Shown here: positions 45,001 through 62,414 of the stretch, one piece after another
Position numbering within the stretch: position 1 is the stretch's first letter
How the letters are laid out: the number at the start of each line of letters is the position of its first letter
NCBI GenBank assembly: GCA_002898715.1
Contig: BEIA01000001.1
Span: 1,994-65,993 of the forward strand
Reading direction: 5' to 3'
Origin: a bacterium HR24
Lineage (GTDB): Bacteria > Chloroflexota > Dehalococcoidia > SM23-28-2 > HRBIN24
Length of the DNA: 64,000 nt
Made by a program: the position numbers and the translations under genes
The notes under the pieces: generated by a model
What the model was told of the DNA's origin: nothing
The model's database searches: none
What the model saw: only the letters and a program-made list of their open reading frames with translations

Positions 45001-45185
45001 CCCGTTTCATGTTACACGATTCGACCTCCTACGAAATATGTTACACGTTTGGCTCTGCTGCGGGAGACGCTACATGCAAGACATGACTCTCATCATCGCA
45101 CCATGCTCCCCCTGGTGCCCATTGCCTTCCTCACCAACTGCGCTCGGGAGGCCCCTACCGTTACCGCCCATTACGTCGTGCAGGC

Positions 45186-45465
45186 TACTGACTACTCGGT
45201 TTGACCCTGAAGGCGTAGATGTGACAGAGGAGAAAGAGGGAGATGGTAGGCGCGTGAGCAGATTGTACCACCTGCACTTTGGCTCCTGGCATGCCACCGG
45301 TTCTAGTCTTCTGTAGATGACTCCCAGATAGGACCTAGGGCGTGCCGCTTTATGGCTACCGACTACTCGTTTTGACCCTGAAGGCATAGCCGTGACACGT
45401 AAGCAAATGGGAGATAGCATGAGCAAGGGGAGATTGTACCATTGCCACTTGCCGTGTGCTGCCCT
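45186..45465. repeat. Two ~110-bp imperfect direct repeats upstream of parM (TTTGACCCTGAAGGC-containing; putative parC/promoter)
   Basis: Copy 1 ~45186-45300 and copy 2 ~45356-45465 share GACTACTCG(G/T)TTTGACCCTGAAGGC(G/A)TAG...GTGACA...GGGAGAT...GAGATTGTACCA...CTTG; a third TTTTGACCCTGAAATGACCCTGACATGAC box lies at ~45555. Confidence 0.6.
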
Positions 45466-46177
45466 CATACCCTGTCCGTAGCGTTAAGCTCATGCCAAAT
45501 AGGGGCCTCGGCCCTGCTCGTCCGGCCGCCTTAATTAAGTGAGCGCCCAATGTTTTGACCCTGAAATGACCCTGACATGACTATACCTCCCCCCAAAATC
45601 CCCCCGTCATTGCACCCGCGTGCTGCCATGACCACACCCGTGCCCATCATCACCTGTGCACCCGTTGGGGTATCGTCTTCCATGCTTTCCCTCTCGCCCA
45701 CATCGCCACCGGATCTCCTTCACCCGGCTACCGGTTCTCTCCTTCTCTCACCCACCGTCCCCTTCCACCGGTATGCCGTGTTCTTTGGGCTCGCGCATGC
45801 GATGTCGCAGCGGTCTGTGTCCCCATGTGCACCGTCGCGTGCCACAAGGCATGCGGGGGCAGGGACCGGCGGGTCCCAGCGCTTACCCACCACATCTCTC
45901 TGCGGGGGCATGCAGGTGCCCGATTGGGAGCGCATACAGACTCCCCTCACCTGGAGTACCCGAGGGGGTGCTATGGGAGGATAGGTAGGCGCGATCTGCT
46001 GTGAGGTCTGCCCGTTTTCAGATAGACAGGTGGCTATGGGCCGTGCTACCCAGGGGGCTTCCGTCCCATACCGCGGGACCTGTCCCCGTACAGGCCACGG
46101 CGGGACGACCTGCCGGGTGCGGGAGACGCCTCTGTTTGAGCCACCTGATGACTCGGGCCACTCGCCTGTGGGGACCT

Positions 46178-46606
46178 TCAGGCATGGGGGCCTTCCTGGC
46201 AGGCGTTCCCCATGAGGGCGCGGGCGCACCTGCACCGGTGAGCGCCGTCATCGGCGCCTGCCGGCGCGTGCAGGGCAAGCCGATGCCCCGGCGCGGCGCC
46301 TGCCCTAGCCAGCGTCCCGGCTGGCAGCTCCAGGGCGATGCGGGCATGGGGGCCTCCCATCACCATGCGGAACGGCGGGACGGCACTTGCCGTCTTGAGC
46401 ACCAGCCCGGTGCGGTCCAGGAAGGCGACATCGAGGGGGAAGCGCATGAAGAAGGTATGGATGGCAGAGCAGGGGGCTAGAAGGAGGCCCTCGCCCGGGT
46501 CCAGGCATCTGCGGCCCAGGAGGCCCACGAGCCTCCTCCACCAGGTGCAGGCACAGGCAAGGCGGTAGGCAAGGATGCTGCCGGTCGTGAGGTCTACCAC
46601 CTGCAT
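46178..46606 (-). CDS. DUF192-family protein
   Basis: MQVVDLTTGSILAYRLACACTWWRRLVGLLGRRCLDPGEGLLLAPCSAIHTFFMRFPLDVAFLDRTGLVL...ALELPAGT follows the DUF192/COG1430 pattern. Confidence 0.5.
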   Translation of the reverse strand: MQVVDLTTGSILAYRLACACTWWRRLVGLLGRRCLDPGEGLLLAPCSAIHTFFMRFPLDVAFLDRTGLVLKTASAVPPFRMVMGGPHARIALELPAGTLARAGAAPGHRLALHAPAGADDGAHRCRCARALMGNACQEGPHA

Positions 46607-47391
46607 CCTATAACCATGATAGGACGGGTGGATAGGGGCATCCCCGCCGTGTGCCTGCCCTCCCTTCGGGGAGCATCTCATCTCGTCGACCGTGCGCCGT
46701 GGCTGCCGGTGCACCGCCGGGGTGGTGGGGGCAGCCTCAGGGGTGGCGGATACACAGTCGGGTATGCCGGCGCTGCCGTCGGGAGCCTCGCTTCTGGGAG
46801 GGGCCTACCTAAGCGAGGGGCTGCAGCACAAATTGACCCCAAGCCGACCCTGGAGGGGTGGACGAGGGATAGGTGAGAATGTGAGATCATGGTTGGAGCG
46901 GTGATATCCTCGGGCGATGGATGCCTTGGAGTGCCTTAAGGTGACAGTATCCGCCCCTGAAGGTGTTGACAACCCTAGAGGGAGGCGCTAGCGTTAGCGG
47001 TTGCGAAGAGTGGTGTGATAGCCCCCAAGAGGGGGCACCTCGCCTCATGGGCGAGGCTCCGCCACCCCCGGCGGCGGCGTGAAGCCTATCCCCCTACAAG
47101 GGGCTCTGGGCTGAAGTGGCCGGGGAAGCGGACTGGGCCCTGTCGTGATGGGCCTTGGTCCGCACAGGAGGTAGCCTCCAGGAAGCGGGAGGAGGCACCT
47201 CCAGAGTGCCGTCGGCGCTCCGGTTGGGGACCGACGGCTGCGGGCAGTAGGAAAAAGCCCCCTCAGCAGGGGGGCCAACCCCAGGATTGAACGGGTTGGC
47301 GTCCCTGCCGAGGGGGTTATTGTCGTTTGACAGCCCCCTCGTCGGGTAGGGTGGCAGCATCCTGCCCCATCAGGGGGCTGTCGACCCCCAG

Positions 47392-47435
47392 GCCCCAGGA
47401 GGATGGCCCCACCTCCTGGGGCTTTTGTATTTGGG
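47392..47435 (+). terminator. Intrinsic terminator-like hairpin
   Basis: Perfect 10-bp stem CCCCAGGAGG / CCTCCTGGGG with 9-nt loop, followed by CTTTTGTATTTGGGG; a near-identical copy lies at 48832. Confidence 0.5.
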
Positions 47436-47495
47436 GCCCTCCGTCGGAGCTGGCCCGGCCGGCGGTGCAAAACCAAAAGGGCTGGAGGTGAACGT

Positions 47496-48242
47496 ATGCG
47501 ACGGTGGGTGTTGTTCTTCCTCCTGGGGGGCATCCCGGGGCTCCTCCTGGCACTCCTGCTGGGGGCTGCTCCCATGCCTCCCATTTTGCGGCGCCTCCTC
47601 CTGGTGGGGGGCGCCGGCCTGCTGGGGGCCCTCTTCCTGGGGGCCATAGCAGGCAACTTGGGGCTCCGGGCGACGGGGCCCGAGGACCCCACTCCCGCAT
47701 TCGCGGCTGCGGGCGCGGTGGCCGTGGCGGGCGCAGCCGTCACCCTGGCAGTCGTGGCCGCCATGGCCGTCCGGGCTGCCCGCCGGCCCGGACGGCCCGC
47801 TCAGGCCGCCCCGACCACCCCGACCGCCGCGGCCGCCACAGGGAGCGAGGGCACCCAGGGCAGCCCCGCTCCCGCCGTGGCCGTGCACGGCGCCGCCCCG
47901 GAGGAGGCGGCCCGGCTGGAGGCCCTGCTGCGGCCGGTCTCGTCCCTCCTGGGCCGGCCCCTGGTGGTGGTCATCACGCCAGGGAGGCCCCGCGGGTGGC
48001 GGCTGGAGGGGGGCGTCCTCCTCCAGGTCCCCCGCCCCCAGGAGCGGCTCCTGCTAGCCGCCCTGGAGGATGCCCTCCTGGGCAGCGGCAGCCCAGGCGC
48101 CCCTCGACGGGAGCGGCCGTCGCGGCGTGCCCCTGAGGCCGACGTGGCCACAGCATCCCGCCGGCCGCGGCCCGAGGACATCGCCGCCGCTGTGGGAGGC
48201 GCCACACCGGAGGGGAATGGTCCAATGAATGGAGGTGTATAA
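47496..48242 (+). CDS. Membrane protein, paralog A (Ala/Gly-rich TM helices + Pro/Arg-rich C-terminus)
   Basis: MRRWVLFFLLGGIPGLLLALLLGA... ; about 85% identical at the protein level to the product of 59106-59822; start chosen at the ATG preceded by GGAGGTGAACGT. Confidence 0.55.
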   Translation: MRRWVLFFLLGGIPGLLLALLLGAAPMPPILRRLLLVGGAGLLGALFLGAIAGNLGLRATGPEDPTPAFAAAGAVAVAGAAVTLAVVAAMAVRAARRPGRPAQAAPTTPTAAAATGSEGTQGSPAPAVAVHGAAPEEAARLEALLRPVSSLLGRPLVVVITPGRPRGWRLEGGVLLQVPRPQERLLLAALEDALLGSGSPGAPRRERPSRRAPEADVATASRRPRPEDIAAAVGGATPEGNGPMNGGV

Positions 48243-48469
48243 TGATGCTGGCGATGGTCAGTCGAGAGCTGAAGGAAGCGTTTCGAGCTGCAACGCGCCT
48301 GCCTCCGGAGGCACAGAGGGAGCTTGCCGCCTTGATCATGGAAGAGATTGCCGACGAAGAGCGATGGGCTGCCCTGTTTGCCGATCCTCGCAGTGAGCCA
48401 CTCATTGCGCGCCTTGCGGCTGAGGCGGTGGCAGAGGATGATGCAGGCCTCACCGAGCCCTGCGATTGA
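48242..48469 (+). CDS. Putative antitoxin (small acidic protein)
   Basis: 75 aa; ATGA overlap with the downstream RelE/ParE-like gene; acidic C-terminus. Confidence 0.45.
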   Translation: MMLAMVSRELKEAFRAATRLPPEAQRELAALIMEEIADEERWAALFADPRSEPLIARLAAEAVAEDDAGLTEPCD

Positions 48470-48738
48470 GGTCCAGGACAACTCGCTCGTTTAGACAGCA
48501 GTTGGAGGCCCTGCCACCGCACATCCGACGTCAGGCGCGCAAGGCGTATGAACTCTTCCGTGCCAATCCTTCGCACCCCAGCCTCCACTTCAAGCACGTT
48601 ATCGCTAATGTCTACTCAGTCCGCATCACACGAGGATACCGGGCGCTCGGCGTGAAGCGGGGGGATAGCATAGTCTGGTTCTGGATTGGCAGCCACGACG
48701 AGTATGAGCGCATGTTGAGGGCAGAGCCTGGGATCTAG
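48466..48738 (+). CDS. RelE/ParE-superfamily type II toxin
   Basis: 90 aa; core VYSVRITRGYRALGVKRGDSIVWFWIGSHDEYERML matches the RelE/ParE pattern (YR(I/V)..R.GDYRiiY.....i.il.IGHR.e.Y). Confidence 0.55.
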   Translation: MRSRTTRSFRQQLEALPPHIRRQARKAYELFRANPSHPSLHFKHVIANVYSVRITRGYRALGVKRGDSIVWFWIGSHDEYERMLRAEPGI

Positions 48739-48831
48739 CCTAACGACCGGTACTGAGGAGTCTCACCCCCCCAGCGCCCTTCGTGACGGGAGGGCGCCGG
48801 AGAGGGGGTGAGAGATTCATATGTCCCCAAG

Positions 48832-48875
48832 CCCCAGGAGGATGGCCCCACCTCCCGGGGCTTTTGTATTTGGGG
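48832..48875 (+). terminator. Intrinsic terminator-like hairpin (second copy)
   Basis: CCCCAGGAGG-ATGGCCCCA-CCTCCCGGGG followed by CTTTTGTATTTGGGG; ~95 nt after the toxin stop. Confidence 0.45.
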
Positions 48876-50322
48876 CCCCTGTCTGGCGGCGGGGCCGCAG
48901 GCGGCCAGGCGGGGAGTTTGTCGACGGGACTGCGGCAGGTGCCGGCAGGACGCCGTCCCCCAGGAGAGGGTGGGCCTGGGCGAGAAGGCCAGGGCCTATA
49001 GCGCCCCCGCCACCTGCTCCATCCCCATCTCCTGCGGGCGCCCGGGCGGAGTGGGGATGGTGCTGGTCGGGACCGGGCGTCGGGGTGGCCCCGCCCCGTC
49101 CTCTCGGAGAGCGGGAGGGCCGAGAGGAGAAGGACGCGCCTGCACCTCCATGGGAGGGGGCGCGTCCAGGGGGACCCTTCCCCGATGCTCCCCAGGGGAA
49201 GGGTGCTCAGTCCGGGGGAGCACCCGCCGGAGCTGGCCCGGCCGGTGGGGAAAGTTATGGGCCAAAAGGGGGGAAGAAGGGGTGAAGGAGGTGCTGTGTA
49301 GTCAGCGCTCCCCGGGCTGCCTGCCCACCCGGGAGGGGCGCTAGTAACTGAATCCCACCCACCCCTGTGGGTGAGGTGGGGGACGCCCCAGGGTTAGCCC
49401 TCCTGGGGCGATAAAGGCGGAGGGCCCCCAGGAGCCCCAAGGCGGGGGGCGCTCCCCCGCGCGGCGGGTATGGCGTCCGCGGCGGGGCCCCTGGGTTTTC
49501 CCCCCTCGTGTCGGGGCTACCGGCGCACGGAGGGTTGGCCGTCCGGCAGGCGGCCTGGCCCGGGCCGGCTGCGGCGAAGGAGTGTCCACCCCAGGGCGGA
49601 GAGGTCACCCCCTCTCCAGCGCTCTTTCTCAAGGGGAGGGCGCCGGAGAGGGGGTGAGAACTTTTTGAGAACTTTTAAGGCCTGCCTCAGGGATACGGCC
49701 CCGGAAGAGGAAGGGCCGCAGCCGGGGCACGTCCCTGTGGCCCATGTCCGGCCGCGGCCCTACCTCACCAGGAGGTTCGCATGGACAGGCGGACCCATTC
49801 GTGGTCCGTCCCGTGCTCCTGCGACCTTGGCGACGCTTGCCCCGTCGCCAAGGCCATTATAGCACAGAGCACGGCGACGGGCCGCGGGCAGGGCCGCTAA
49901 GCCCCTGCCCGCTCCAACCGAATCCCCCCACCCCGTGGGGCGGTGTTGGCCTGGTAGCCGCACCGGGGGCGATGCTCCAGCCCTGCCGGGGGACGTGGGG
50001 ACTCTCTCCCTACCATCGTGGCCGGATGGTAGGGGTCCGGGAAGGCCCTCCTCCCCGCACCCGCCAGGGAGGGGCCAACTGAATAGGGCTGGAAAACTGA
50101 ATAGCCCCGGCGCTCTCCCCGAGGCACCGGGGCAGGCGGGATAGGGGCAGGGGGTGGGAAGCCGCGGCAGCCGGCACCCACCCCTGTGTGTTGCTGCCCT
50201 CCCCTGTGGAGCGCCCGCCGCCACGGGGGAGTAGAGAGGGCGGGCTTCCCGCCCCTGGCCCCGGGGGCAAAGCCCTCCCCGAATGGGGCACAAATCGAAG
50301 GGGAGGGCAGGAGGAGCATCCC

Positions 50323-51423
50323 ATGGCAACCAGCAAGAAGAGCCATATCATCGACCCCCTTGACGAGGGGGTCGACCCCAGGCTGGCGGTTCTCGCCGCT
50401 ATCCGGGAGCAACTCCCGGAGGGCGGCGATGACGCCGCCGCCCCCGCCAAGACCGAGGCGCCCAAGGCGGGCGCCAAGGCTCAGGCCCAGGCCCCGGCCG
50501 TGGCTACCGTGGCCGACACCGACCTCCAGGCGGCCTTGCGCCGCCTGGAGGAGCGGGCCAAGACGGCCCGCCAGGAAGCCGAGGCCCGACTGGCGGAGGC
50601 CAACGGCCTCCGCCAGCGGCTGGGCGAGCTAGCCCGGGAACGGGGCCGGCTCGCCCACGTCGCCCGCCGCGCCCAGGCGCTTGCAGCCTGGGCCGGCGAG
50701 GAGGCCCGGGCCCTGGCGGAGCAGGCCGAGGCCCGCATGCGGGCCATCGAGGAGGAAATGGACGCCATCCGCATTCGCCTCCAGGAGATGGAGGCGGACC
50801 AGGGCATTCGCCTCCTCCGCGCCGAGGAGGCGGCCCGGGCCGAGGCCGAAAAGGCCAAGGCCCAGGCCGAGCAGGCCCGCCAGCTGGCGCGCGAGGGCAA
50901 GCTGGCAGAGGCCCTGGCCAGCCTCCCCGCCCGGCCCGAGGAGGGCTCCCCCGTGGCGGAGGCCCGGCAGGAGCTCCTGCGCACCGCCCACCGTGTGGTG
51001 GGCAACGCCATCTTCCGCGCCCGGGAGGCCCTCGCGGCCGGCGAGGCCGAGCGGGCGCTGAAGGAGATCCAGGGGGTAGCCCGCCTCCTCCCCCACGTTC
51101 GAGGGGAGGACCGGCGGGCGGCCCATGGGGTGTTTTGCCAGGCGGTTCACCGCCTGGCACCCCCCGGCCAGCCCCTAGTGGTCATCCGGGGGCGGCGGCT
51201 TGCCCGAAGGGGCCGTCTCACATGGACGGCCCCGCCCGGGGCCATTGCTGTCGGCACCCCCCTTCGTGGGGCTGCCAGAGTGCTCTACGACCTGGGCACC
51301 CCCTGGAAGGAAGGGGCCTTCGTGCGCGCGGAGGAGGCTGACATACAGCCCCTCCGCACGCGGCACGGTGCGGAGGGGAACAAGCCCCCCGCACCGTGCC
51401 GCAGCAAGGGGGCGAGGGGATAA
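50323..51423 (+). CDS. Coiled-coil hypothetical protein
   Basis: Start MATSKKSH preceded by AGGAGG; long Ala/Glu/Arg-rich heptad region (EEARALAEQAEARMRAIEEEMDAIRIRLQEMEADQG); conserved leader motif upstream. Confidence 0.45.
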   Translation: MATSKKSHIIDPLDEGVDPRLAVLAAIREQLPEGGDDAAAPAKTEAPKAGAKAQAQAPAVATVADTDLQAALRRLEERAKTARQEAEARLAEANGLRQRLGELARERGRLAHVARRAQALAAWAGEEARALAEQAEARMRAIEEEMDAIRIRLQEMEADQGIRLLRAEEAARAEAEKAKAQAEQARQLAREGKLAEALASLPARPEEGSPVAEARQELLRTAHRVVGNAIFRAREALAAGEAERALKEIQGVARLLPHVRGEDRRAAHGVFCQAVHRLAPPGQPLVVIRGRRLARRGRLTWTAPPGAIAVGTPLRGAARVLYDLGTPWKEGAFVRAEEADIQPLRTRHGAEGNKPPAPCRSKGARG

Positions 51424-51889
51424 CCCTCGCCCCCTCCCCTCCTAACGGAGGGGGCCTCCTGCTCCCACAGGGGGCCCCGAGAGGGAGGTGACAGTATGCC
51501 GTATCCCTTTCTCCTGTCACCCCGGCCCTCCAAGGGGAGGGCCCAACCTCCATCCTCGGGGCTCCCTGCGGGGGCAGGAGCCTCGTACCCCCATCGCCAC
51601 GGGCCCCCTGTGTCGCTCCGCCGCCCACCGCATCCCCGCGTGCCCCAACCTCGTCGCCGGCACTCCTGGGACGCGAGCGGCCCCGGGGCAGCGGGCGGCG
51701 GGTGGCAGAGGGAGGCCAAAGGCCAGCACGACCCCTGTCTTGGGGGGTGGTGCTGTCGGGGCCCCTGGGGGCGGAGGCCCCCACCCCCTTTCCTCTTCCC
51801 CCTTCCCCCCTTCGGGGGGGAGGGGGAGAAGTGTGCCGCTCAGAGCTCCACCCTGGGCGGCAGAAAGGGTATTGGGGAGGTGAGGTGAG

Positions 51890-52159
51890 ATGGTAAGCAT
51901 CACCGACCTCCTCCTACTGGCCAGGCGCCAGCAGGAGGACACCTTCGCTGCGGCCCTGGCGACAAGGCTCGGGCCGCCAGGGGAGGCGTGGGAGGCCGTG
52001 GCCCAGGCGCTGGGGATGCCCTGGGAGCGGTTCCTGTGCCTCCTTACCTGCCGCCTGCCCAGGACGGCAGCGGCGGCCGAGGCCCTGGCCGGGGCCTTCG
52101 GCCTCCCCAAGGAGGCCATCCTGGCCCTGGCCGAGGGGGAGCTGCCGGGAGGGGTGTGA
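51890..52159 (+). CDS. Small hypothetical protein
   Basis: 89 aa; GGGGAGGTGAGGTGAG RBS; TGATG overlap with the primase start. Confidence 0.35.
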   Translation: MVSITDLLLLARRQQEDTFAAALATRLGPPGEAWEAVAQALGMPWERFLCLLTCRLPRTAAAAEALAGAFGLPKEAILALAEGELPGGV

Positions 52160-53220
52160 TGGCCCGACCCGGCAGCGGGTGGAGGGACCTCAAGGAGGAG
52201 GTCCTCCGCCTGTACTCCCCCCTGGACGTGGCCCAGCGCTATGGGCTCGAGCTCCGGCGCATGGGCCGTGTCTGGGCAGCGAGGTGTCCCTTCCATCCGG
52301 ATACACGGCCCTCCTTCTTCGTGTATCCGGATGGCTTCCACTGCTTCGGCTGCGGCTGGCACGGGAACGTGGTGGACTTTGTCGCCGCGGCCGAGCAGGT
52401 GGGGTGGCGGGAGGCCCTCGACCTCCTCGCCGGCGGGCACCTCGGTGCCCCCAAGGCCGTCCGCCCACCGGCCCCGGAGGAGCGGGCGCCGACGGCCGAG
52501 GAGCTGGCCGCGGTGCAGGTCGCCTGGGAGACCTGCCGCCGGCACCTCCGGGACCGCCGGCCCCGCGAGTACCTCACCAGGCGGGGCATCCCCCTGGACG
52601 TGGCCGAGGAGCTCGGCCTCGGCTACTGGGCGCCAGGGGTGGCCACCCGCCTGGAGGCGCTGGGGCTGGTGGAGGCCGCCCTCGCAGTGGGGCTCCTGCG
52701 ACGGCGACGCTCCCCTATGGGGGAGGAGCTGCCGCGCTACTGGGAGCCCTTCCGGGGTCGGGTCATCATACCCGACCTCACGAGGGGCGGCCAGGCCCGG
52801 TGGCTCACCGGCAGAGCCGCCGATGACGTCACCGAGCCCAAATATCTCAACCTCTCCCTCCCCAAGCCCCTGCTGGGGCTGGACACGGTGGAGGGAGAGG
52901 AGGCGGCCCTGGTGGAGGGGCCCCTCGACTGGGTGGCGGCAAGGGCCATGGGCCTTCCCGCCGTCGCCACCCTGGGGGCCCACGTGGGCCGCCTGAAGAT
53001 CACCTCGCTGGCCAGGTTCCGGCGGGTGTTCCTGCTGTTTGACGCCGACGAGGCCGGGCAGCAGGCAGCCAGGGACCTGGCCAAGGCCCTGGGCCGGCGG
53101 GCGGTCATCGTCCCCATCCCCAAGGGGGCCAAGGACGTGGCCGACCTGCTGCTGGCCCAAGGCGGAAAGGGCCGCCTCCTCAGGGCCATGGAGGCGGCCA
53201 GAGAGAAAAAGGGAGGATGA
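52159..53220 (+). CDS. DNA primase (DnaG-type: CHC2 zinc finger + Toprim)
   Basis: Zinc finger CPFHPDTRPSFFVYPDGFHCFGCGWHG; Toprim motifs VIIPD...EGPLDWV...FLLFDADEAGQQAA. Confidence 0.75.
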   Translation: MARPGSGWRDLKEEVLRLYSPLDVAQRYGLELRRMGRVWAARCPFHPDTRPSFFVYPDGFHCFGCGWHGNVVDFVAAAEQVGWREALDLLAGGHLGAPKAVRPPAPEERAPTAEELAAVQVAWETCRRHLRDRRPREYLTRRGIPLDVAEELGLGYWAPGVATRLEALGLVEAALAVGLLRRRRSPMGEELPRYWEPFRGRVIIPDLTRGGQARWLTGRAADDVTEPKYLNLSLPKPLLGLDTVEGEEAALVEGPLDWVAARAMGLPAVATLGAHVGRLKITSLARFRRVFLLFDADEAGQQAARDLAKALGRRAVIVPIPKGAKDVADLLLAQGGKGRLLRAMEAAREKKGG

Positions 53221-53534
53221 GGATGGCGCTTGTCATCTCTCCCCTCCCTGCCCAGGCGCCCGCCTCTCGCCACCGGCGGGCACGGGAGCTCCTGCGGCTC
53301 ATGAGGGCCCATGCAGCTCTCATGGCAGCCGCCTCAAGGGTCTGCCCCGGCGCCCCAATGCCCGTCGGTGGCCCGGAGGCGCGCCGCTTCCTGCTACTCC
53401 TCCAGGAGGCAGGAGCGAGCCCCTATGCCCAGGGGCGCGCCCTGGCCCTGCTGGAGTGGCAGGCGGAGCGGCTCCTGAGGCAAGGAGGGGAGAGAAGTCC
53501 TACCTGCCGGGCAAAGATGCCACCCGGCAGGTAG
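53217..53534 (+). CDS. Hypothetical protein
   Basis: 105 aa; overlaps the primase stop; no motifs. Confidence 0.3.
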   Translation: MRMALVISPLPAQAPASRHRRARELLRLMRAHAALMAAASRVCPGAPMPVGGPEARRFLLLLQEAGASPYAQGRALALLEWQAERLLRQGGERSPTCRAKMPPGR

Positions 53535-53600
53535 AATGAGAGAGGGAGAGGGGCCCAGGGACTGCCCAGGGAGCCCTCCCCTGTGGGAGGGCAGGTGAGC

Positions 53601-53765
53601 CATGCCTCTACAGCCGGAGGCGGCCACCATACTGAGGCCCCTCGTGGAAGGGGGCCTCGCCCTGGGCGTAGGCATGGCCCTCCTCCTCTGGGCCGCCGGC
53701 TCCCGCTACTTCGAGGTCATCTTCATCCTCGCAGCCTTCGGGCTGCTCGTCTACATCTGGCGGTA
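53601..53765 (+). CDS. Small membrane protein (54 aa), absent from the ORF track
   Basis: MPLQPEAATILRPLVEGGLALGVGMALLLWAAGSRYFEVIFILAAFGLLVYIWR; GGGAGGGCAGGTGAG RBS 7 nt upstream. Confidence 0.3.
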
Positions 53766-53901
53766 GCCCGGAGGCCGCAGCAGTCCTCCCCCTGACCCCA
53801 ACCCCAACCCCAACCGAGATACCACCATCCTCGCCCCTAGTCCCGGGGGCATAAGCCTGTCCGAACGGGGCACGAATCGAAGGGCAGGCGGAGGTGAACA
53901 T

Positions 53902-55155
53902 ATGCGCGATGTCATCTTCACCGCCACCCCCTGTGGGGTGGCGGTCCTCCCCACCACCGACACTGCCCCCGCCGGCGCCCGGCGCCTTCTGGCGGGGCGC
54001 GCCTACCTTCTCCCCTCCCGGGAAGGCCTCCCGGCGGAGGGTGAGAGAGAGGTCCTCGACCTCGCCTCCCGCCTCGCCCGCCTGCGGGACGAGGTGGCGG
54101 TGAGGTTCGTGGCCAGGGACGAGCTCGCCCTGGCCACCGCCTGCGCTCTTTCGTCGGGAGAGCACCTCTTCGTCCTCTCCCCTCCCGGGGCGGCGAAGAG
54201 CGCGTTCCTCCGCGCCTTCGCCGAGGGCATTGGGGGCCGCTTCTTCCGGGTGGTCCTCAATCCCGATATCCCCCGGGAGGCCATCTTCGGCGCCATCGAC
54301 CCCTCGGCCCTCGCCGAGGGCAAGTGGCGCCGGCGGTGGGACGGGCTGGCCCGGGCCCACCTGGCGCTCCTGGACGAGGTGTTCAAGGCCTCGCCACAGG
54401 TCTTGAACACCCTCCTGGACGCCCTTGAGGAGAGGCGGGCCGGCCAGGGGGAGGACGAGGTCGTCCTCCCCCTCATCTCCGCCATGGGTGCCTCCAACGA
54501 GGCGCCCGAAGAGCCGGAGCTGAGGGCGGTCTATGACCGCTTCCTCGTCCGGCTCTCGGTGGGGTACGTCCAGGACCCCACCGCTTTCAAGGGGCTGCTC
54601 GTGGCCGATGCCGGCAGCAGCCCCATCACCCCTGTCATGACAGCAGAGGAGCTCATGCTCCTTGCTGCCGCCGTGGAGGCCATGAGCCTCCAGCCGCCCG
54701 CCGAGGTGGTGGAGGCCATGGCCACCATCTGGTCGGAGATGCGCGACCGCGCCGTCTCCGACCGCCGGTGGCGGCGCTCCCTCAAGGTCGCCACCGGCCA
54801 TGCCCTCCTGCGGGGTGCCCAGGCGCCGGAGGTCTATGACCTCGCTGCCCTGCGGTGGACCCTCTGGGTCGACCCGCAGGAGGAGAAGGAGGTCCGGGAC
54901 CTGGTCCTGGGCCTCACCGACCCCCTGGCGGGGAAGGTGCTGGACCTGGAGGCCCTCCTCGCCGATGCCGCCCGCCGTATGGCGGGCCTCGGCCAGATGA
55001 AGGCCGAGGAGAAGGCCCGCCTCCTGCGGGAGCTGCGGGAAATTCGCAGCGAGGCGGAGGGGGTCCTGCCCCAGGCGGGGCGCCATGCCCCGCGCGTCTC
55101 GGCCGTCGCCGAGGAGGCCCAGGCGATGGTCGAGAAGATCATCTCCAGCTTCTAG
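53902..55155 (+). CDS. MoxR-like AAA+ ATPase (AAA_5/AAA_3)
   Basis: Walker A HLFVLSPPGAAKSAFLRAF, Walker B ALLDEVFKASPQVLNTLLDALEER, sensor region; conserved leader GGGGCACGAATCGAAGGGCAGGCGGAGGTGAACAT directly upstream. Confidence 0.75.
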   Translation: MRDVIFTATPCGVAVLPTTDTAPAGARRLLAGRAYLLPSREGLPAEGEREVLDLASRLARLRDEVAVRFVARDELALATACALSSGEHLFVLSPPGAAKSAFLRAFAEGIGGRFFRVVLNPDIPREAIFGAIDPSALAEGKWRRRWDGLARAHLALLDEVFKASPQVLNTLLDALEERRAGQGEDEVVLPLISAMGASNEAPEEPELRAVYDRFLVRLSVGYVQDPTAFKGLLVADAGSSPITPVMTAEELMLLAAAVEAMSLQPPAEVVEAMATIWSEMRDRAVSDRRWRRSLKVATGHALLRGAQAPEVYDLAALRWTLWVDPQEEKEVRDLVLGLTDPLAGKVLDLEALLADAARRMAGLGQMKAEEKARLLRELREIRSEAEGVLPQAGRHAPRVSAVAEEAQAMVEKIISSF

Positions 55156-55167
55156 GGGGAGGGGGCC

Positions 55168-55902
55168 ATGCAGAACCTTCTCCGCCACACCTGCCCCTCC
55201 TGCCAGGGGCGATTCTGGCTGGAGCGGCTCCCGCAGGGGACCATCCTGTGTCCCTACTGCGGGGCGACTGTCTCCGGCTCCGGCCGCCTCGGGCGGAGGA
55301 GCAGCGCGGTCCCGGCGTGCACGGTCCGCAACGGGACCGCCGTCCCCGGCATCCGCACCGAGGATGGCCTCATCATCCTCGGTGAGGAGGGCCGGGGCAG
55401 GCGACTCACCCGGGTGCCCCTGCCGTCGGGGGCATCCCTAGACCGGGAGGGGACCGTGCAGGCCCTCCCGGTGTCCCACCCCGCCGCGGTGGCAGTGATC
55501 CTCATCCGGGACCACTCCGGCTACCGCGGCGGGTGGGAGCTCCTCACCCTCCCAAGGGAGGACTGCCCCCTGCGGGGCAAGCTGGAGCTCCTGTGGGAGG
55601 AGACCTGCCCCGTCTGCGAGTGGTGGGGCAGGCATGGGCCCTACCCCGTCCGCCAGCTCCGGGCGCAGGACCTCGGCCACCTCATCGCCGAGGGCTACTG
55701 TGCCCAGGGAGCTGCCGGGCGAATGGGCGGCGGGCCCGAGTACCTCATCGCCGCTCCCCCGGGGGAGTTCTGCATTTACCGCTGGGGGCGGCTCTACGGC
55801 GCACCCCGCTTCGTGGGGGTGCGCATCTACCCCGACGGCCGGGTGGAGACGTGGGACGTCATGGAAGCCCTCTCCTCCACCCGTGCCGCCGAGTCCTGGT
55901 AA
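55168..55902 (+). CDS. Zinc-ribbon protein (candidate vWA-MoxR-associated middle component)
   Basis: N-terminal CPSCQGRF...CPYCG zinc ribbon, further CPVCEW; sits between the MoxR and VWA genes. Confidence 0.45.
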   Translation: MQNLLRHTCPSCQGRFWLERLPQGTILCPYCGATVSGSGRLGRRSSAVPACTVRNGTAVPGIRTEDGLIILGEEGRGRRLTRVPLPSGASLDREGTVQALPVSHPAAVAVILIRDHSGYRGGWELLTLPREDCPLRGKLELLWEETCPVCEWWGRHGPYPVRQLRAQDLGHLIAEGYCAQGAAGRMGGGPEYLIAAPPGEFCIYRWGRLYGAPRFVGVRIYPDGRVETWDVMEALSSTRAAESW

Positions 55903-55918
55903 GGAGGGGGGTGAGGCC

Positions 55919-57493
55919 ATGAACGGCCCCATCCCCTACCTCCCTCCCGCCGCCGAGCGGGTCCTGGAGCAGGCCCGCAGGCTCTTCCTCCTGCGGGACC
56001 TGCGCTCGGTGGCGGCGGGGGCCGACCGCCTCTCCTTCCGCCAATGGGCGGAGGGGGTGCGCGGCTACCCCCAGGCCGCCGAGGCCAACGAGGACCTCGG
56101 CGGCATCCTCGGCGGGGAGCCGGTGAGGGACGCCTTCTTCCTCGTCACCTCGCCGGCGCCGCAGCTGGTGCCGCAGCCCCCACAGGGCACCGAGCTGCTG
56201 CACCGCATCCTGGGGGAGGCCATCACCACCCCGGGCTTCGGTCGCCTGCGGGAGACGGCGGGCGATGACCCGGTGGTGGCTGCGTACGGCGCCTCCCACT
56301 GGGCGCGGGAGCTCGTCTCGCAGCTCCCGGAGTCCATCAAGGAGGCCGCCCGCGAGGCAGCCGCTGCCCAGGGGGAGGTGCAGGAGGCCCGGGAAGCCCT
56401 GCAGCAGCTCGCTGCCCTCAAGGCCTCCCTCGAGGAGCAGGGCCGGGAGGTGCCCGGCGAGCTGGTGGAGCAGCTCGCCCAGGCCGAGGCAGCCGTCCAG
56501 GCAGCCACCGCTAGGGCCCAGGCGGCCTCCTCGACCACCCTCGCCCTCCTGGAGGAGAGGGCAGCAGAGGTGCGGGCCGCCGCCTCCCGAGCCGCCGAGG
56601 CGGCCTCCACCCAGGGCCGCCAGTTCGAGGCCTCGGTGAGGGGCTTCGACCTGGCGGCAGGGGGCGAGGGGGCCGTCTCGCCCGAGGCGGCGAGGGCCTG
56701 GATGGAGGTCCTCGCCCGCCATCCCCGCCTGGAGGCCCTGGCTCGCGAGCTGGGCTGGGCCCGCCGCCTGGTGGGCTCCCTCTGGCGCCAGTCGCCACAC
56801 GCCCGCACGGAGCTGGTGGGCTACCGCTCCGGCTACCTGCGGGCCGAGGAGCTGGCGCCCTGGGAACTGGCCCTCATGGTGGGGCCGGCGCCTGCCCGGC
56901 TCGACTTCCTGCGCCGGGCTGCCGAGGGTGACATCCGCCACCGGCAGCTGCAGGGCAGGGAGAAGATGGGACGGGGGCCGCTGGTGGTGGTCAGGGACGA
57001 GTCGGGCTCCATGCAAGGGGGTCCGCATGCCCTGGCCGTCGCCATCGAGTGGGCCCTCCTGGAGGTCTGCCGCCGGGAGGGCAGGCCCCTCGTCTCCATC
57101 TGTTTCTCCGGGCCGGGGCAGGTCCGGGCCTGGAGGGCGCCCACAGGCGGGCGGCCCGACCACGAAGGGCTGCTCCGCCACCTCTCCCACTTCTACGGGG
57201 GAGGGACGGAGCCCTACCAGGCCCTCTCCCTCGCCCTCCGGGAGGTGGAGGGGAGCGCCGAGATGAGGCGGGCCGACATCCTCCTCATCTCGGACGCCAT
57301 CTTCCCACCTCCGCCGGAGGAGGTGCGACGGCTGCTGGAGGCCGCCCGCCGGCGCCGCCCCCTGCACCTGGCCGCCGTCCTGGTGGGAACGGTGCCGGGA
57401 CCCCTGGAGGGGCTGGCACACCCCATCGTCAGGGTGTCAGACCTCCTCCAGGAGAGGGAGCGGCTGCGGGAGGCCCTCTCCGCCGTCCTGTAA
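55919..57493 (+). CDS. VWA-domain protein (MoxR partner)
   Basis: C-terminal VWA/MIDAS-like block LVVVRDESGSMQGG ... ILLISDAIF; long coiled-coil/Ala-rich N-terminal half. Confidence 0.65.
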   Translation: MNGPIPYLPPAAERVLEQARRLFLLRDLRSVAAGADRLSFRQWAEGVRGYPQAAEANEDLGGILGGEPVRDAFFLVTSPAPQLVPQPPQGTELLHRILGEAITTPGFGRLRETAGDDPVVAAYGASHWARELVSQLPESIKEAAREAAAAQGEVQEAREALQQLAALKASLEEQGREVPGELVEQLAQAEAAVQAATARAQAASSTTLALLEERAAEVRAAASRAAEAASTQGRQFEASVRGFDLAAGGEGAVSPEAARAWMEVLARHPRLEALARELGWARRLVGSLWRQSPHARTELVGYRSGYLRAEELAPWELALMVGPAPARLDFLRRAAEGDIRHRQLQGREKMGRGPLVVVRDESGSMQGGPHALAVAIEWALLEVCRREGRPLVSICFSGPGQVRAWRAPTGGRPDHEGLLRHLSHFYGGGTEPYQALSLALREVEGSAEMRRADILLISDAIFPPPPEEVRRLLEAARRRRPLHLAAVLVGTVPGPLEGLAHPIVRVSDLLQERERLREALSAVL

Positions 57494-57614
57494 CCGCCAC
57501 CCCTGATCCCTGTGCGTCCATGACGCCGCGAGGCGCACAGAAGGGGACAGGGGTCCCCACCGGCGTCGGCCCGGCCGGCGGGGTGAAGCTATGGGCCAGG
57601 AGGTGATATGTGAT

Positions 57615-59072
57615 ATGATACTGAACCTCCTACCCCCGCTTCACCGCCCTGCCTACATGGTGGGCGGGGCGGTGCGAGACATGCTCCTGGGGAGACCCCT
57701 CCACGACATCGATATCGTCGTGGAGGGGGACCCCCATGAGGCCGCCCGCGAGATCGGTGCTGCCCTCGCGGGCGCCCTGGTCCCCCTCAAGGGCCTGGTG
57801 CGGGTGGTGGCCACCCATGTGCAGGTGGACATCACCCGCCTTTCGGGGCCTATCGCCGAGGACCTGGCCCGCCGCGACTTCACCATCAACGCCATGGCCC
57901 TCCCGCTGGGATCCGGGAGGGAGAAGGGCCTGCCCCCGGTCCTGGACCCCACGGGTGGCAGGGACGATCTCCGCCGGGGCGTCGTGCGACTCGTCTCGCC
58001 CGATGCCCTGGCAGCCGACCCGGTGCGGCTCCTGCGGGGGCCCAGGCTCGCCCTCGAGCTGGGCTTCCGCGTAGAAGGGCACACCGCCCGGGCCATCAGG
58101 GCGCATGCCCAGCTCCTCGGCAGGGCAGCCCCTGAGCGGCTGGCGGAGGAGCTGCGCCGGCTGCTCCACCTGCCGGACGGCGGGCGGGGGATGGGCCTCC
58201 TCCACCACCTTGGCCTCCTCGTACAGCTCTTCCCCGAGCTGCAGGAGGCCGAGGGGGTGGCCCAGCCCTACCCCCACCGGCAGGACGTCCTCGCCCACCT
58301 GCTGGACGCTGCCAGGTGGGCCGACGTCATCCTCGGCCGCTCGGCGACGGCCGAGGAGGAGCGCGTCCGCCGGGCCACCGGCCACCTCATGACCCCACAG
58401 GTGCACGAGCGCCTGGGGGAGGAGGTGGCCCACGGCTGGCAGCAGGCGGCCCTCCTGCGGTTGGGGGCACTCCTGCACGATATAGGCAAGCCCCGCAGCC
58501 GTAGGAGAACCCAGGACGGCCGTGTCCACTTCTATGGACACGACCGCCTGGGCGCCGAGATGGCAGCAGCCATGGCGGCGCGCCTCCGGCTCCCCGCCAG
58601 GGCCGGCACCTTTCTCATGGCCCTGGTGAGGGAGCACATGCGGCCGGTGGGGCTCGCCGCCGCCCCCGGCCTGCCCTCCCGCCGTGCCCTCTACCGCCTC
58701 CACCGCGACGCCGGCGGCACCGCCACCGCCCTGGCCCTCCTGTTCGTGGCCGACACCCTGGCCACGAGCGGGCCCGGGGACCGGGAGCGGCTGGGGCGGG
58801 CGCTAGAGGTGGCCCGCCACCTCGTGCTCTACGGCCACGAGCAGGACGCGGTGCCCAGGCTCCTGTCCGGCCACGACGTCATGACCGCCCTGGGCATCGG
58901 GCCTGGGCCCCTCGTGGGCCGGGTGCTGCGGGCCGTGCAGGAGGCGGCAGCCGCGGGGGAGGTATGCAGCAAGGAGGAGGCGCTGGAGCTGGCCAGGCGC
59001 ATAGCCCAAGCTCCCGCGCCCTCCCAAGAGCCCATCCCTGCCCCTGGCCCCGGGGGTGAAGCCTGCCCGTAA
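57615..59072 (+). CDS. CCA-adding tRNA nucleotidyltransferase / poly(A) polymerase-family enzyme with HD domain
   Basis: Pol-beta NTase head GGAVRDMLLGRPLHDIDIVVEG, RRDFTINAMAL, HD motif ALLHDIGKP...HFYGHD; start at MILNLL with AGGAGGTG RBS (ORF extends to 57591). Confidence 0.75.
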   Translation: MILNLLPPLHRPAYMVGGAVRDMLLGRPLHDIDIVVEGDPHEAAREIGAALAGALVPLKGLVRVVATHVQVDITRLSGPIAEDLARRDFTINAMALPLGSGREKGLPPVLDPTGGRDDLRRGVVRLVSPDALAADPVRLLRGPRLALELGFRVEGHTARAIRAHAQLLGRAAPERLAEELRRLLHLPDGGRGMGLLHHLGLLVQLFPELQEAEGVAQPYPHRQDVLAHLLDAARWADVILGRSATAEEERVRRATGHLMTPQVHERLGEEVAHGWQQAALLRLGALLHDIGKPRSRRRTQDGRVHFYGHDRLGAEMAAAMAARLRLPARAGTFLMALVREHMRPVGLAAAPGLPSRRALYRLHRDAGGTATALALLFVADTLATSGPGDRERLGRALEVARHLVLYGHEQDAVPRLLSGHDVMTALGIGPGPLVGRVLRAVQEAAAAGEVCSKEEALELARRIAQAPAPSQEPIPAPGPGGEACP

Positions 59073-59105
59073 GGGGCACAAATCGAAGGGCAGGCGGAGG
59101 TGAAC

Positions 59106-59822
59106 ATGCGTAGGTGGGTCTTCTTCTTCCTGCTGGGGGGCATCCCGGGGCTCCTCCTGGCACTCCTGCTGGGAGCTGTCCCGGCGCCCCCCACCCTGCG
59201 GCGCCTCCTCCTGGTGGGGGGCGCCGGCCTGCTGGGCTCCCTCTTCCTGGGGGCCATAGCAGGCAACCTGGGGCTCAGGGCCACGGGGCCCGAGGACCCC
59301 ACGGCGGCCTTCGCCGCCGCCGGCGCGGTGGCCGTGGCCGGCGCAGTCGTCACCCTGGCAGTCATCACCGCCATGGCCGTCAGGGCTGCCCGCCGGCCCG
59401 GGCAGCCTGAGCAGGCCACCCCGGCTGCCCCGGTCGCCAGGGGGAGCGAGGGCGCCCAGGGCGGCCCTGCTCCTGTGGTGGCCGTGCACGGTGCCGCCCC
59501 GGAGCAGGGGGCCCGGCTGGAGGCCCTGCTCCGGCCGGTCTCGTCCCTCCTGGGCCAGCCCCTGGTGGTGGTCATCACCCCAGGGAGACCCCGGGGGTGG
59601 CACCTGGAGAAGGGCATCCTCCTCCAGGTGCCACGTCCCCAGGAGCGGCTCGTGCTTGCCGCCCTGGAGGACGCCCTCCTAGGCGGGGGCAGTGAGCGCC
59701 CTCGCCGCGAGAGGTCGCCTCGCCAGCTCCCCGAGGGAGGCGGGCCGACTGTGTCGCGCCGCCCTCGGCCCGAGGACATCGCCGCGGCCGTGGGTGGCGC
59801 CACGACGGAGGGGGAGGCATAG
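59106..59822 (+). CDS. Membrane protein, paralog B
   Basis: MRRWVFFFLLGGIPGLLLALLLGAVPAPPTLRRLLLVGGAGLLG...; near-identical to the product of 47496-48242; leader GGGGCACAAATCGAAGGGCAGGCGGAGGTGAAC upstream. Confidence 0.55.
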   Translation: MRRWVFFFLLGGIPGLLLALLLGAVPAPPTLRRLLLVGGAGLLGSLFLGAIAGNLGLRATGPEDPTAAFAAAGAVAVAGAVVTLAVITAMAVRAARRPGQPEQATPAAPVARGSEGAQGGPAPVVAVHGAAPEQGARLEALLRPVSSLLGQPLVVVITPGRPRGWHLEKGILLQVPRPQERLVLAALEDALLGGGSERPRRERSPRQLPEGGGPTVSRRPRPEDIAAAVGGATTEGEA

Positions 59823-59826
59823 CAGC

Positions 59827-62393: not shown

Positions 62394-62414
62394 GGAACTA
62401 CAGGAGGTGAGAGG

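What the first reader, a model, noticed from the sequence alone, without database searches (positions are those of the whole stretch)
47385..59110. Duplicated membrane-protein genes 11.6 kb apart, and a conserved ~35-bp leader reused upstream of four genes
Genes 47496-48242 and 59106-59822 encode about 85%-identical membrane proteins. The two are long direct repeats that could drive deletion or inversion of the intervening module. Separately, the motif GGGGCAC(A/G)AATCGAAGGG(C/G)AGG(C/A)GGAG(GTGAAC) occurs just before the starts at 50323 (variant), 53902 and 59106, with a shorter GGAGGTGAACGT version before 47496. A shared leader points to a common promoter-proximal operator or translational control element, such as a riboswitch-like or sRNA target. 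It may coordinate expression of the cargo modules.
Basis: seen in the sequence. Interest (0 to 1): 0.55.

Follow-up and report, generated by a model that had tools for sequence, protein, structure and literature searches.

The report
Pseudoknotted RNA leader reused in conjugative element
A mobile DNA element in a hot-spring Chloroflexota genome puts the same roughly 65-base folded RNA leader, not matched by any RNA family in Rfam, directly in front of the ribosome-binding site of three unrelated genes, and it also carries an old duplicated membrane-protein gene that seems to act as a recombination point.

Summary
Both observations are real. Genes 47496-48242 and 59106-59822 are paralogues (87% nt, 82% aa). 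The leader has three strong copies (50251-50322, 53833-53901, 59040-59105); the one before 47496 is only a distant relative.

The window holds an integrative conjugative element (ICE) of the Chloroflexota MAG 'bacterium HR24'. Related metagenomic elements keep both paralogues and all three leader positions.

The leader is much more than a ribosome-binding site (RBS). It consists of:
- hairpin P1;
- an A-rich linker;
- hairpin P2;
- a 5-bp loop-loop pseudoknot between the P1 and P2 loops;
- a strong Shine-Dalgarno (SD) sequence that starts right after P2.

P2 and the pseudoknot each show compensatory changes across 16-18 distinct copies (96-98% of cells paired, against 36-66% when the partner is shifted). 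There are 28 G·U pairs on the mRNA-sense strand. No Rfam family matches.

Best reading: a new cis-acting mRNA leader that sets translation initiation or stability of the first gene of each module. The structure is well supported; the function is inferred.

A Logan contig, 100% identical to the window on both sides, joins the 5' part of paralogue B to the 3' part of A. That fits a tandem duplication or an excised 11.6-kb circle, but it could be an assembly chimera.

The parts
50251..50322 (+). Leader copy 1, before the 366-aa hypothetical gene (ATG 50323). P1 50251-50256/50263-50268, P1 loop 50257-50262, linker 50269-50271, P2 50272-50280/50300-50308. The pseudoknot partner 50285-50289 pairs with 50258-50262. 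A-rich strand 50290-50299, SD AGGAGGAG 50309-50316.
   Evidence: (83.3 bits)
53833..53901 (+). Leader copy 2, before the bpMoxR AAA+ gene (ATG 53902). P1 53833-53838/53845-53850, P2 53855-53862/53882-53889 (one G·U). The pseudoknot partner 53867-53871 pairs with 53840-53844 (one U·G). SD GGAGGTGA 53890-53897.
   Evidence: (87.4 bits)
59040..59105 (+). Leader copy 3, before membrane paralogue B (ATG 59106). P1 59040-59045/59052-59057, P2 59061-59068/59088-59095. The pseudoknot partner 59073-59077 pairs with 59047-59051. SD GGAGGTGA 59096-59103. The stop codon of the upstream CCA-enzyme gene (59070-59072) lies in the P2 loop.
   Evidence: (85.6 bits)
47440..47495 (+). Divergent leader before membrane paralogue A. 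It shares the A-rich strand, G-rich arm and SD with the family, but has its own covarying hairpin (about 47443-47468) in place of P1 and the pseudoknot.
   Evidence: (11 bits, E ~0.9)
47496..48242 (+). Membrane-protein paralogue A (248 aa, three predicted TM helices plus a small C-terminal domain), followed by an antitoxin gene (48242-48469) and a ParE-like toxin gene (48466-48738).
59106..59822 (+). Membrane-protein paralogue B (238 aa), followed by an AAA+ gene (probably 59827-61065) and a DUF2201 VWA-like gene (61062-62393).
47527..47567 (+). 41-nt stretch identical in A and B (B copy about 59137-59177). It contains the crossover of the B-5'/A-3' hybrid contig L026. The coordinates were counted by eye on the alignment.
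47386..47439 (+). Terminator-like hairpin with a U-run. It is one of two 96%-identical 54-nt copies (the other is at 48825-48878) that bracket the A-antitoxin-ParE module.
   Evidence: (D12)
48825..48878 (+). Second copy of the 54-nt terminator-like hairpin, downstream of the ParE-like gene.
   Evidence: (D12)

Best explanation
The repeated 'leader' is a cis-acting structured RNA in the mRNA sense.

Shown: it consists of a 6-bp hairpin P1 with a 6-nt loop, a 3-4-nt A-rich linker, and a 7-9-bp hairpin P2. The large P2 loop carries a 4-nt spacer, 5 nt that pair with the P1 loop (a loop-loop pseudoknot), and a ~10-nt A-rich strand. A strong SD (GGAGGUGA or AGGAGGA) starts 0 nt after P2, and the start codon follows 5-9 nt later. 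The motif sits before the first gene of three modules in the plus-strand maintenance/cargo arm of a tRNA-integrated conjugative element of a thermophilic Chloroflexota bacterium. Related elements keep it at the same three positions.

Inferred: the compact fold acts after transcription on the gene directly downstream. It would hold the SD single-stranded and insulated from whatever lies upstream, and/or block 5'-to-3' decay. It would also offer one identical structured surface at three operon heads, through which a single factor, still unidentified, could tune all three together. Copies exchange sequence with each other, so the motif also behaves as a portable initiation cassette.

The two membrane-protein genes are old paralogues that each head a module. 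Their 0.75 kb of homology is a substrate for duplication or deletion of the 11.6-kb segment between them.
For: Context:
- hrcA, dnaK and a tRNA gene are followed by an integrase, a relaxase, a coupling protein, VirB4-like, TrbL, PrgI and ParM-like genes.
- The source MAG is identified.

The motif is real:
- Three hits of 83-87 bits in the window, nothing else above 16 bits, and 0 matches expected by chance.
- It is kept before the orthologous hypothetical, MoxR and paralogue-B genes in L001/L002, L003, L004, L007, L015, L018, L022 and L027-L034.
- Leader identity to orthologues (72-93%) is close to that of the first 300 nt of the coding sequence (63-91%): clearly higher for the hypothetical gene, about equal for MoxR and paralogue B. 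It exceeds the upstream spacer in 8 of 11 comparisons.

Structure:
- The pseudoknot is intact in 18 of 18 distinct copies, as GCCCC/GGGGC, GUCCC/GGGAC, CUCCC/GGGAG, and one U·G intermediate.
- P2 occurs as GCCUGCCC/GGGCAGGC, GCCCUCCCC/GGGGAGGGC, GCCCGGCCC/GGGCCGGGC and GCCUCUCC/GGGGGGC.
- On my excerpt alignment, 98% of cells pair, against 41-66% when the partner is slid. Four pairs change on both sides, and 0 of 500 shuffles reach the covariation score.
- The result holds on a model-fitted alignment that knows nothing of the pseudoknot: 95.9% overall, and 97.8% for the pseudoknot helix.

RNA sense:
- 28 G·U cells against 2 C·A cells.
- Every copy is on the gene's strand with a fixed join to the SD.
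- The minimum-free-energy folds recover P1 and P2.

Exchange between copies:
- The L015/L022 leader is a hybrid of the two types, with one P2 mismatch.
- The L002 leader before paralogue B has the MoxR-type sequence.
- L032 has a copy before antitoxin-ParE (32.9 bits).
Against: - There is no transcript, probing or reporter data. Function is inferred from anatomy only.
- The family is narrow: 16-18 distinct copies from about three lineages, so there are few independent events. P1 never varies and therefore has no covariation support.
- Single-sequence folding energies are not better than shuffles (z -0.5 to -1.4), as expected at 70% GC.
- The conserved fold does not itself sequester the SD, so no on/off switch is visible.
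- No candidate RNA-binding regulator was found among the neighbouring genes.
- My excerpt alignment was built with the structure in mind.
Confidence: 0.55

Rival explanations
1. It is a self-cleaving or otherwise processed RNA. The motif would cut the polycistronic transcript just 5' of each module, or act as an exonuclease-resistant knot, leaving a short stable 5' end that carries the SD.
For: The topology resembles the pistol ribozyme as described in PMC6101554: a P1 hairpin whose loop pairs with nucleotides inside the loop closed by P2, joined by an A-rich linker. The motif is intercistronic in at least one case: the CCA-enzyme stop codon lies inside the P2 loop. It is multi-copy in a mobile element.
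Against: There is no P3 helix and no conserved G-U step. The linker is A-rich but variable (AAA, AUAA, GAA, CAG, GAU, AGG). No Rfam ribozyme model matches, even at E <= 10 on a 121-nt search. The most conserved bases are in helices, not in junctions.
Confidence: 0.12
2. It is a riboswitch whose pseudoknot forms a pocket for a small ligand that reports host or element state.
For: It is a compact pseudoknotted fold next to an RBS, with a partly conserved A-rich strand (ACAAAUCNAA). No known family matches, so a new class is possible.
Against: The downstream genes are functionally unrelated and all lie on one mobile element. The unpaired junction nucleotides vary. No alternative fold that hides the SD is conserved: the pyrimidine tract that pairs with the SD in the close copies is absent from L027-L032. 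The motif is confined to one ICE family: two hits in genome representatives, about the 2 that I calculated for chance, and 0 viral hits.
Confidence: 0.1
3. It works at the DNA level, either as a promoter/operator or as a folded single-strand site used during conjugative transfer or cassette recombination.
For: It sits at module boundaries. Gene content next to the copies differs between elements: the CCA gene is present, absent or truncated, and leader copies have recombined. G·T wobbles are also tolerated in single-stranded DNA of the same sense.
Against: There is no sigma-70-like match at any copy. Base-pair covariation and a loop-loop pseudoknot are not expected for a duplex operator. The fixed 0-nt join to the SD and 5-9-nt spacing to the ATG point to translation. 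The only recombinase in the window is the tRNA-site integrase at 9076-10296.
Confidence: 0.1
4. It has no function of its own. The similarity is left over from segmental duplication and gene conversion of an upstream region.
For: Copies do exchange sequence (hybrid leader in L015/L022). The neighbouring paralogue pair shows that duplication occurs in this region.
Against: The repeat stops exactly at the ATG of three non-homologous genes. It is about as conserved as the coding sequence, and clearly more so at the hypothetical gene. Substitutions are compensatory in two separate helices.
Confidence: 0.08

Closest known systems
Pseudoknot activator of rep translation in IncI-alpha/IncB/IncL-M plasmids (ColIb-P9 repZ, pMU720 repA)
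   Same: It is a plasmid-borne mRNA leader in which a hairpin loop makes a long-range pairing near the RBS, and the pseudoknot keeps the initiation signal open. The loop is a control point (PMC4705826).
   Different: In ColIb-P9 the partner (CGCC) lies immediately 5' of a weak SD and a GUG that a stable structure masks. The system also needs leader-peptide translation and is opposed by a cis-antisense RNA. Here the partner lies inside the P2 loop, about 20 nt before a strong, unmasked SD and an AUG. No antisense partner was found. The motif serves three unrelated genes, not a replication gene.
Pistol self-cleaving ribozyme
   Same: The order of elements is shared: a P1 hairpin, an A-containing single-stranded linker, P2, and loop nucleotides inside P2 that pair with the P1 loop (PMC6101554).
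   Different: There is no P3 and no G-U cleavage step. The pseudoknot has 5 bp, not 6. The linker is 3-4 variable nt, not 7 nt with an invariant AAA. The Rfam model gives no hit. Cleavage is untested.
PeSL mobile regulatory cassettes of T4-type phages
   Same: These are short conserved regulatory repeats containing a stem-loop. They sit at the borders of variable gene modules in a mobile genome and mediate shuffling by recombination between copies (PMC2839356 and PMC4122927).
   Different: PeSLs are promoter-plus-terminator DNA motifs. This motif has no promoter match, is fused to the SD, and has a covarying pseudoknot.
Multi-site protein-binding RNA operators, such as the PyrR sites in the Bacillus pyr operon or the pseudoknot operators of S4, S15 and T4 gp32 (from my own knowledge, not checked here)
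   Same: One structured RNA element is repeated before several cistrons, or a pseudoknot next to an RBS lets one protein control translation.
   Different: No binding protein has been identified here, and no terminator/antiterminator alternative is conserved.

Membership tests
Any Rfam 15 family | Match to a curated covariance model | tested here: not met
   At gathering thresholds the whole window yields only a tRNA. At E <= 10 on 53800-53920 and E <= 5 on 45000-60000, no hit overlaps a leader on its strand.
Pistol ribozyme | P1 hairpin loop pairs with nucleotides in the loop closed by P2 | tested here: met
   A 5-bp loop-loop pairing is kept in 18 of 18 copies, with two covarying pairs.
Pistol ribozyme | Conserved AAA in the 7-nt J1-2 linker | tested here: not met
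   The linker is 3-4 nt and variable: AAA, AUAA, GAA, CAG, CAA, GUAA, GAU, AGG, CAU, AUGA.
Pistol ribozyme | P3 helix followed by a G-U cleavage step before the 3' strand of P2 | tested here: not met
   Only a ~10-nt unpaired A-rich strand (ACAAAUCGAA) lies between the pseudoknot partner and the 3' strand of P2.
Pistol ribozyme | Site-specific self-cleavage | not testable with these tools
   This needs an in-vitro transcription and cleavage assay.
ColIb-P9-type pseudoknot switch | Pseudoknot partner immediately 5' of a weak SD and GUG that a stable structure masks | tested here: not met
   The partner lies about 20 nt before the SD, inside the P2 loop. The SD has 7-8 nt complementary to the 16S rRNA 3' end, and the start codon is AUG in all but one copy. 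The conserved fold leaves the SD unpaired.
ColIb-P9-type pseudoknot switch | Antisense RNA that competes for the hairpin loop | tested here: inconclusive
   The loop has no trans complement in the window and there is no minus-strand promoter match near the leaders. A cis-antisense transcript cannot be excluded without RNA data.
Riboswitch | Expression platform: a conserved alternative pairing that hides the SD or forms a terminator | tested here: not met
   The pyrimidine tract that pairs with the SD in the close copies is missing in L027, L029, L030, L031 and L032. No U-run terminator follows P1 or P2.
Riboswitch | Ligand binding | not testable with these tools
   This needs in-line probing or ITC.
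PeSL-type regulatory cassette | Contains a promoter | tested here: not met
   No sigma-70-like site lies at or within 100 nt of any leader. Other promoter types are not covered by the scan.
PeSL-type regulatory cassette | Copies recombine and border variable gene content | tested here: met
   The leader in L015/L022 is a hybrid. The MoxR-type leader stands before paralogue B in L002. The CCA gene next to the leader is present, absent or truncated. L032 has a leader before antitoxin-ParE.
Integrative conjugative element (context) | Integrase next to a tRNA gene, plus relaxase, coupling protein and mating-pore genes | tested here: met
   tRNA 5709-5781; integrase 9076-10296; Replic_Relax, TraG/T4SS-DNA_transf and TraG P-loop (VirB4-like); TrbL; PrgI and an SLT/M23 hydrolase. 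The far end of the element lies outside the window.

The most novel reading that the evidence does not exclude
The motif is a new class of functional RNA in its own right. It could be a minimal P3-less relative of pistol-type self-cleaving ribozymes, or an exonuclease-resistant knot, that a conjugative element uses to cut or protect its polycistronic mRNA at module heads. Alternatively it could be a new riboswitch class that reports recipient-cell state to three operons at once.
Probability: 0.15. Interest if true: 0.8.

Novelty: new member of a known kind. Interest (0 to 1): 0.5.

Why it matters
Structured mRNA leaders that coordinate several operons of a conjugative element are little documented outside replication control. 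This would be a compact example, supported by covariation, from a poorly studied thermophilic phylum.

If the fold is a portable unit that fixes translation of whatever gene follows it, it would explain how such elements swap cargo modules without re-tuning expression. It could also serve as a thermostable insulator part.

The paralogue junction gives a concrete, checkable case of repeat-mediated amplification or excision inside an ICE.

Tried and rejected
- **Plasmid database.** Megablast of 47000-62500 and tblastn of paralogue A found no match.
- **Genome representatives.** The motif pattern gave only two hits, Mycobacterium and Prevotella, which lack the flanking motif and are about what I calculated for chance.
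- **Viral contigs.** No hits.
- **Metagenome scan.** It gave 17 stretches. About half are true copies, all from the same few element lineages, and the rest are chance.
- **SD-sequestering helix.** I considered a closing helix between an upstream pyrimidine tract and the SD, forming a three-way junction as in the minimum-free-energy folds. I rejected it because the tract is not kept in divergent copies.
- **Promoter.** I looked for a promoter inside the leader and found no consistent -35/-10 (and by eye).
- **Trans-RNA partner.** None found.
- **The leader before paralogue A.** I tested it as a full family member and rejected it (11 bits). It has a different covarying hairpin.
- **Literature.** A search on HR24 returned nothing relevant.
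- **MAFFT and model-fitted alignments.** Both mis-register P2 where its length differs, so I made a fixed-length excerpt alignment by hand.

Full report
**What the window is.** The first 5.7 kb are chromosomal: hrcA, dnaK and other housekeeping genes, then a tRNA gene at 5709-5781. After that come:
- an IS110-type transposase and a tyrosine integrase at 9076-10296;
- a Tad-like ATPase, a relaxase, a coupling protein and a VirB4-like ATPase;
- TrbL and a ParM/ALP actin-like gene at 43927-45000;
- PrgI and an SLT/M23 cell-wall hydrolase.

This is an integrative conjugative element (ICE). From 47.4 kb onward, all well-supported genes are on the plus strand. In order they are: membrane protein A, an antitoxin, a ParE-like toxin, a 366-aa hypothetical protein, a DnaG-like primase, bpMoxR, a zinc-ribbon protein, a VWA protein, a CCA-adding/poly(A)-polymerase-HD enzyme, membrane protein B, an AAA+ ATPase and a DUF2201 VWA-like protein. 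Membrane protein B is 100% identical to HRbin24_00062 of 'bacterium HR24'. Its closest named relatives are annotated Chloroflexota.

The two membrane-protein genes align at 87% nucleotide identity and 82% amino-acid identity. They are in direct orientation, 11,610 bp apart. The repeat finder extends it to a 67-nt family of three copies that end at the ATG of three genes. I saw no similarity between those genes just downstream of the ATG, and their Pfam content differs.

**Related elements.** Homologues of protein B are few (9 hits). Homologues of the 366-aa protein are somewhat more numerous (20 hits, down to 48% identity). Their contigs show the same gene order.

The Chloroflexota MAG contig JAVQSQ010000002 also has two paralogues, at the A and B positions (P0005 and P0006). 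Identities are A to P0005 87%, B to P0002 90%, and P0005 to P0006 78%. The duplication is therefore older than the split of these elements and is a stable feature of the family.

The leader stands before the orthologous hypothetical, MoxR and paralogue-B genes in all of them. A scan of 185,579 genome representatives gave two hits, about the number I calculated for chance. A viral-contig scan gave none. The metagenome scan added copies only from the same lineages. The motif therefore belongs to one narrow ICE family.

**Anatomy of the leader.** Read 5' to 3' in the gene's sense:
- P1, GCCCCU/GGGGGC, with a 6-nt loop;
- a 3-4-nt, mostly A-rich linker;
- the 5' arm of P2;
- a 4-nt spacer (GNNN);
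- five nucleotides complementary to P1-loop positions 2-6;
- an A-rich strand of about 10 nt (ACAAAUCGAA and variants);
- the 3' arm of P2;
- with no gap, the SD (GGAGGUGA or AGGAGGA), and the start codon 5-9 nt later.

RNAfold recovers P1 and P2 in every copy.

**Evidence that it folds.** P2 differs between copies and lineages in a compensatory way: GCCUGCCC/GGGCAGGC, GCCCUCCCC/GGGGAGGGC, GCCCGGCCC/GGGCCGGGC, and GCCUCUCC/GGGGGGC with G·U pairs. The loop-loop pairing also covaries: GCCCC/GGGGC, GUCCC/GGGAC and CUCCC/GGGAG, plus one U·G intermediate in the window's MoxR copy. It is intact in 18 of 18 distinct sequences.

| Measure | Fixed-length excerpt alignment | Model-fitted alignment, built without the pseudoknot |
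|---|---|---|
| Cells forming a standard pair | 98% | 95.9% |
| Same, with the partner slid by 1-3 columns | 41-66% | 36-64% |
| Pairs with changes on both sides | 4 (2 in P2, 2 in the pseudoknot) | 4 (2 in P2, 2 in the pseudoknot) |
| Cells with changes on both sides | 17 | 15 |
| Shuffles reaching the covariation score | 0 of 500 | 0 of 500 |
| Pseudoknot helix paired | 100% | 97.8% |

In the model-fitted alignment, the broken pseudoknot cells appear to come from a one-column misalignment of L029, judged from the alignment printed.

There are 28 G·U cells and only 2 C·A cells, so the folding strand is the mRNA-sense strand.

The caveats are these:
- The sequences fall into about three lineages.
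- P1 is invariant and is supported only by conservation.
- Single-sequence energies do not beat shuffles.
- I built the excerpt alignment with the structure in mind.

**What it is not.**
- No Rfam family matches.
- No sigma-70-like promoter lies at or near a leader. The only such matches in 45-63.5 kb are at 45392 and 45572, in the repeat-rich region next to the parM-like gene, plus two inside genes.
- The loop has no complement elsewhere in the window.
- The helix between an upstream pyrimidine tract and the SD, predicted for the close copies, is not kept in divergent ones. The conserved fold therefore leaves the SD free.

**The fourth site.** The leader of paralogue A shares only the A-rich strand, the G-rich arm and the SD. 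It scores 11 bits. It has its own covarying hairpin. A/B homology begins inside what would be the P2 loop. I read it as a derived relative, not a member.

**How it most likely works.**
- *Shown:* a conserved pseudoknotted RNA fold is fused to a strong SD in front of three unrelated first-of-module genes.
- *Inferred:* it acts in cis on translation initiation and/or mRNA stability, and gives the three modules a common handle for regulation.

Plasmid precedent exists for a pseudoknot that keeps an initiation region open and serves as the control point: ColIb-P9 repZ (PMC4705826). The details differ, however. Here the SD is strong and the start is AUG, the partner is not adjacent to the SD, and no antisense RNA was found.

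The order of elements resembles the pistol ribozyme (PMC6101554). But there is no P3 and no G-U step, the linker is variable, and the model does not match. Cleavage remains a minority hypothesis.

A ligand-sensing riboswitch is unlikely, given the unrelated downstream genes, the variable junctions and the absence of an expression platform.

**Exchange between copies.**
- The hypothetical-gene leader in L015/L022 combines the 5' half of the MoxR/B type with the 3' half of the hypothetical type, leaving one P2 mismatch.
- The paralogue-B leader in L002 carries MoxR-type loop bases.
- L032 has a weaker copy (32.9 bits) directly before antitoxin-ParE.
- The CCA-enzyme gene just 5' of the paralogue-B leader is present in the window and L004, truncated in L003 and absent in L002. 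Where present, its stop codon lies in the P2 loop.

This behaviour recalls the PeSL cassettes of T4-type phages (PMC2839356 and PMC4122927), although no promoter is involved here.

**Paralogues as recombination substrates.** Logan contig L026 (run DRR101365, 3,177 bp) is 100% identical to window 57227-59095, and on into the first ~70 nt of B. From about 47523 to 48793 it is 100% identical to the A gene and its downstream neighbours. There is a single switch, inside a 41-nt stretch shared by A and B.

That is the junction expected from unequal crossing-over (tandem duplication of 11.6 kb) or from an excised circle. Because 41 nt exceeds the k-mer length that I believe was used for that assembly, a chimera cannot be excluded.

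Independently, L025 is a diverged element (85-92% identity) in which a B-type gene, with CCA-gene remnant and leader upstream, is followed by genes that lie downstream of A in the window. Such rearrangements therefore do become fixed.

**The membrane protein.** It has three predicted transmembrane helices, an invariant GNLGLRATGPEDPT loop, a low-complexity linker, a confidently modelled ~70-residue alpha/beta domain, and a conserved RRPRPEDIAAAVGG tail. It has no family or fold assignment. Its function is unknown.

**Verdict.** The interesting part is the leader: a narrow-range, covariation-supported, pseudoknotted mRNA leader not represented in Rfam. The structure is well supported and the function is open. 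The gene duplication is ordinary, but it comes with a testable hint of repeat-mediated amplification or excision.

Noticed in passing
window 47386-47439 and 48825-48878: Two 96%-identical 54-nt copies of a plus-strand terminator-like hairpin (10-bp GC stem followed by CTTTTGTATTT). They bracket the 1.44-kb membrane-A/antitoxin/ParE module, which makes that module look like an inserted or duplicable unit.
   Followed up: partly
window 45000-45600: A low-GC (59%) repeat-rich spacer lies between the parM-like gene and the plus-strand block. It contains a 97-nt direct repeat (45183 and 45354), TTTGACCCTGAAGGC three times and ATGTTACACG twice. It also holds the only intergenic sigma-70-like promoter matches in 45-63.5 kb. 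It is probably a parC-like centromere or control region.
   Followed up: no
window 57591-59072; L002, L003, L004: The ICE carries a CCA-adding enzyme/poly(A) polymerase gene with an HD domain. The gene is absent from one related element and truncated in another, and its last ~10 codons and stop codon are supplied by the leader motif.
   Followed up: partly
window ~53795-53815: Three tandem CCCCAA units lie immediately 5' of the MoxR leader. They are only partly kept in L001.
   Followed up: no
window 50213-50219 / 50238-50244; L031, L032: An extra helix, GCC(C/U)GCC...GGC(G/A)GGC, lies 5' of the hypothetical-gene leader and has one covarying pair. The long non-coding stretch 49.3-50.25 kb may hold further structure.
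   Followed up: partly
window 59692-61065: The AAA+ gene after paralogue B most likely starts at ATG 59827, four bases after the stop codon of B, as in the related contigs. The long GTG 59692 ORF overlaps B.
   Followed up: partly
L032:922-996: In one related contig a leader copy with intact P1 and pseudoknot but a degenerate P2 sits directly before antitoxin-ParE, with no membrane-protein gene in between.
   Followed up: partly
window 53902-57493 and 59827-62393: The cargo arm holds two separate AAA+/VWA gene sets: bpMoxR, zinc-ribbon and VWA; and AAA with a DUF2201 VWA-like gene. Neither matches a PADLOC defence model.
   Followed up: partly
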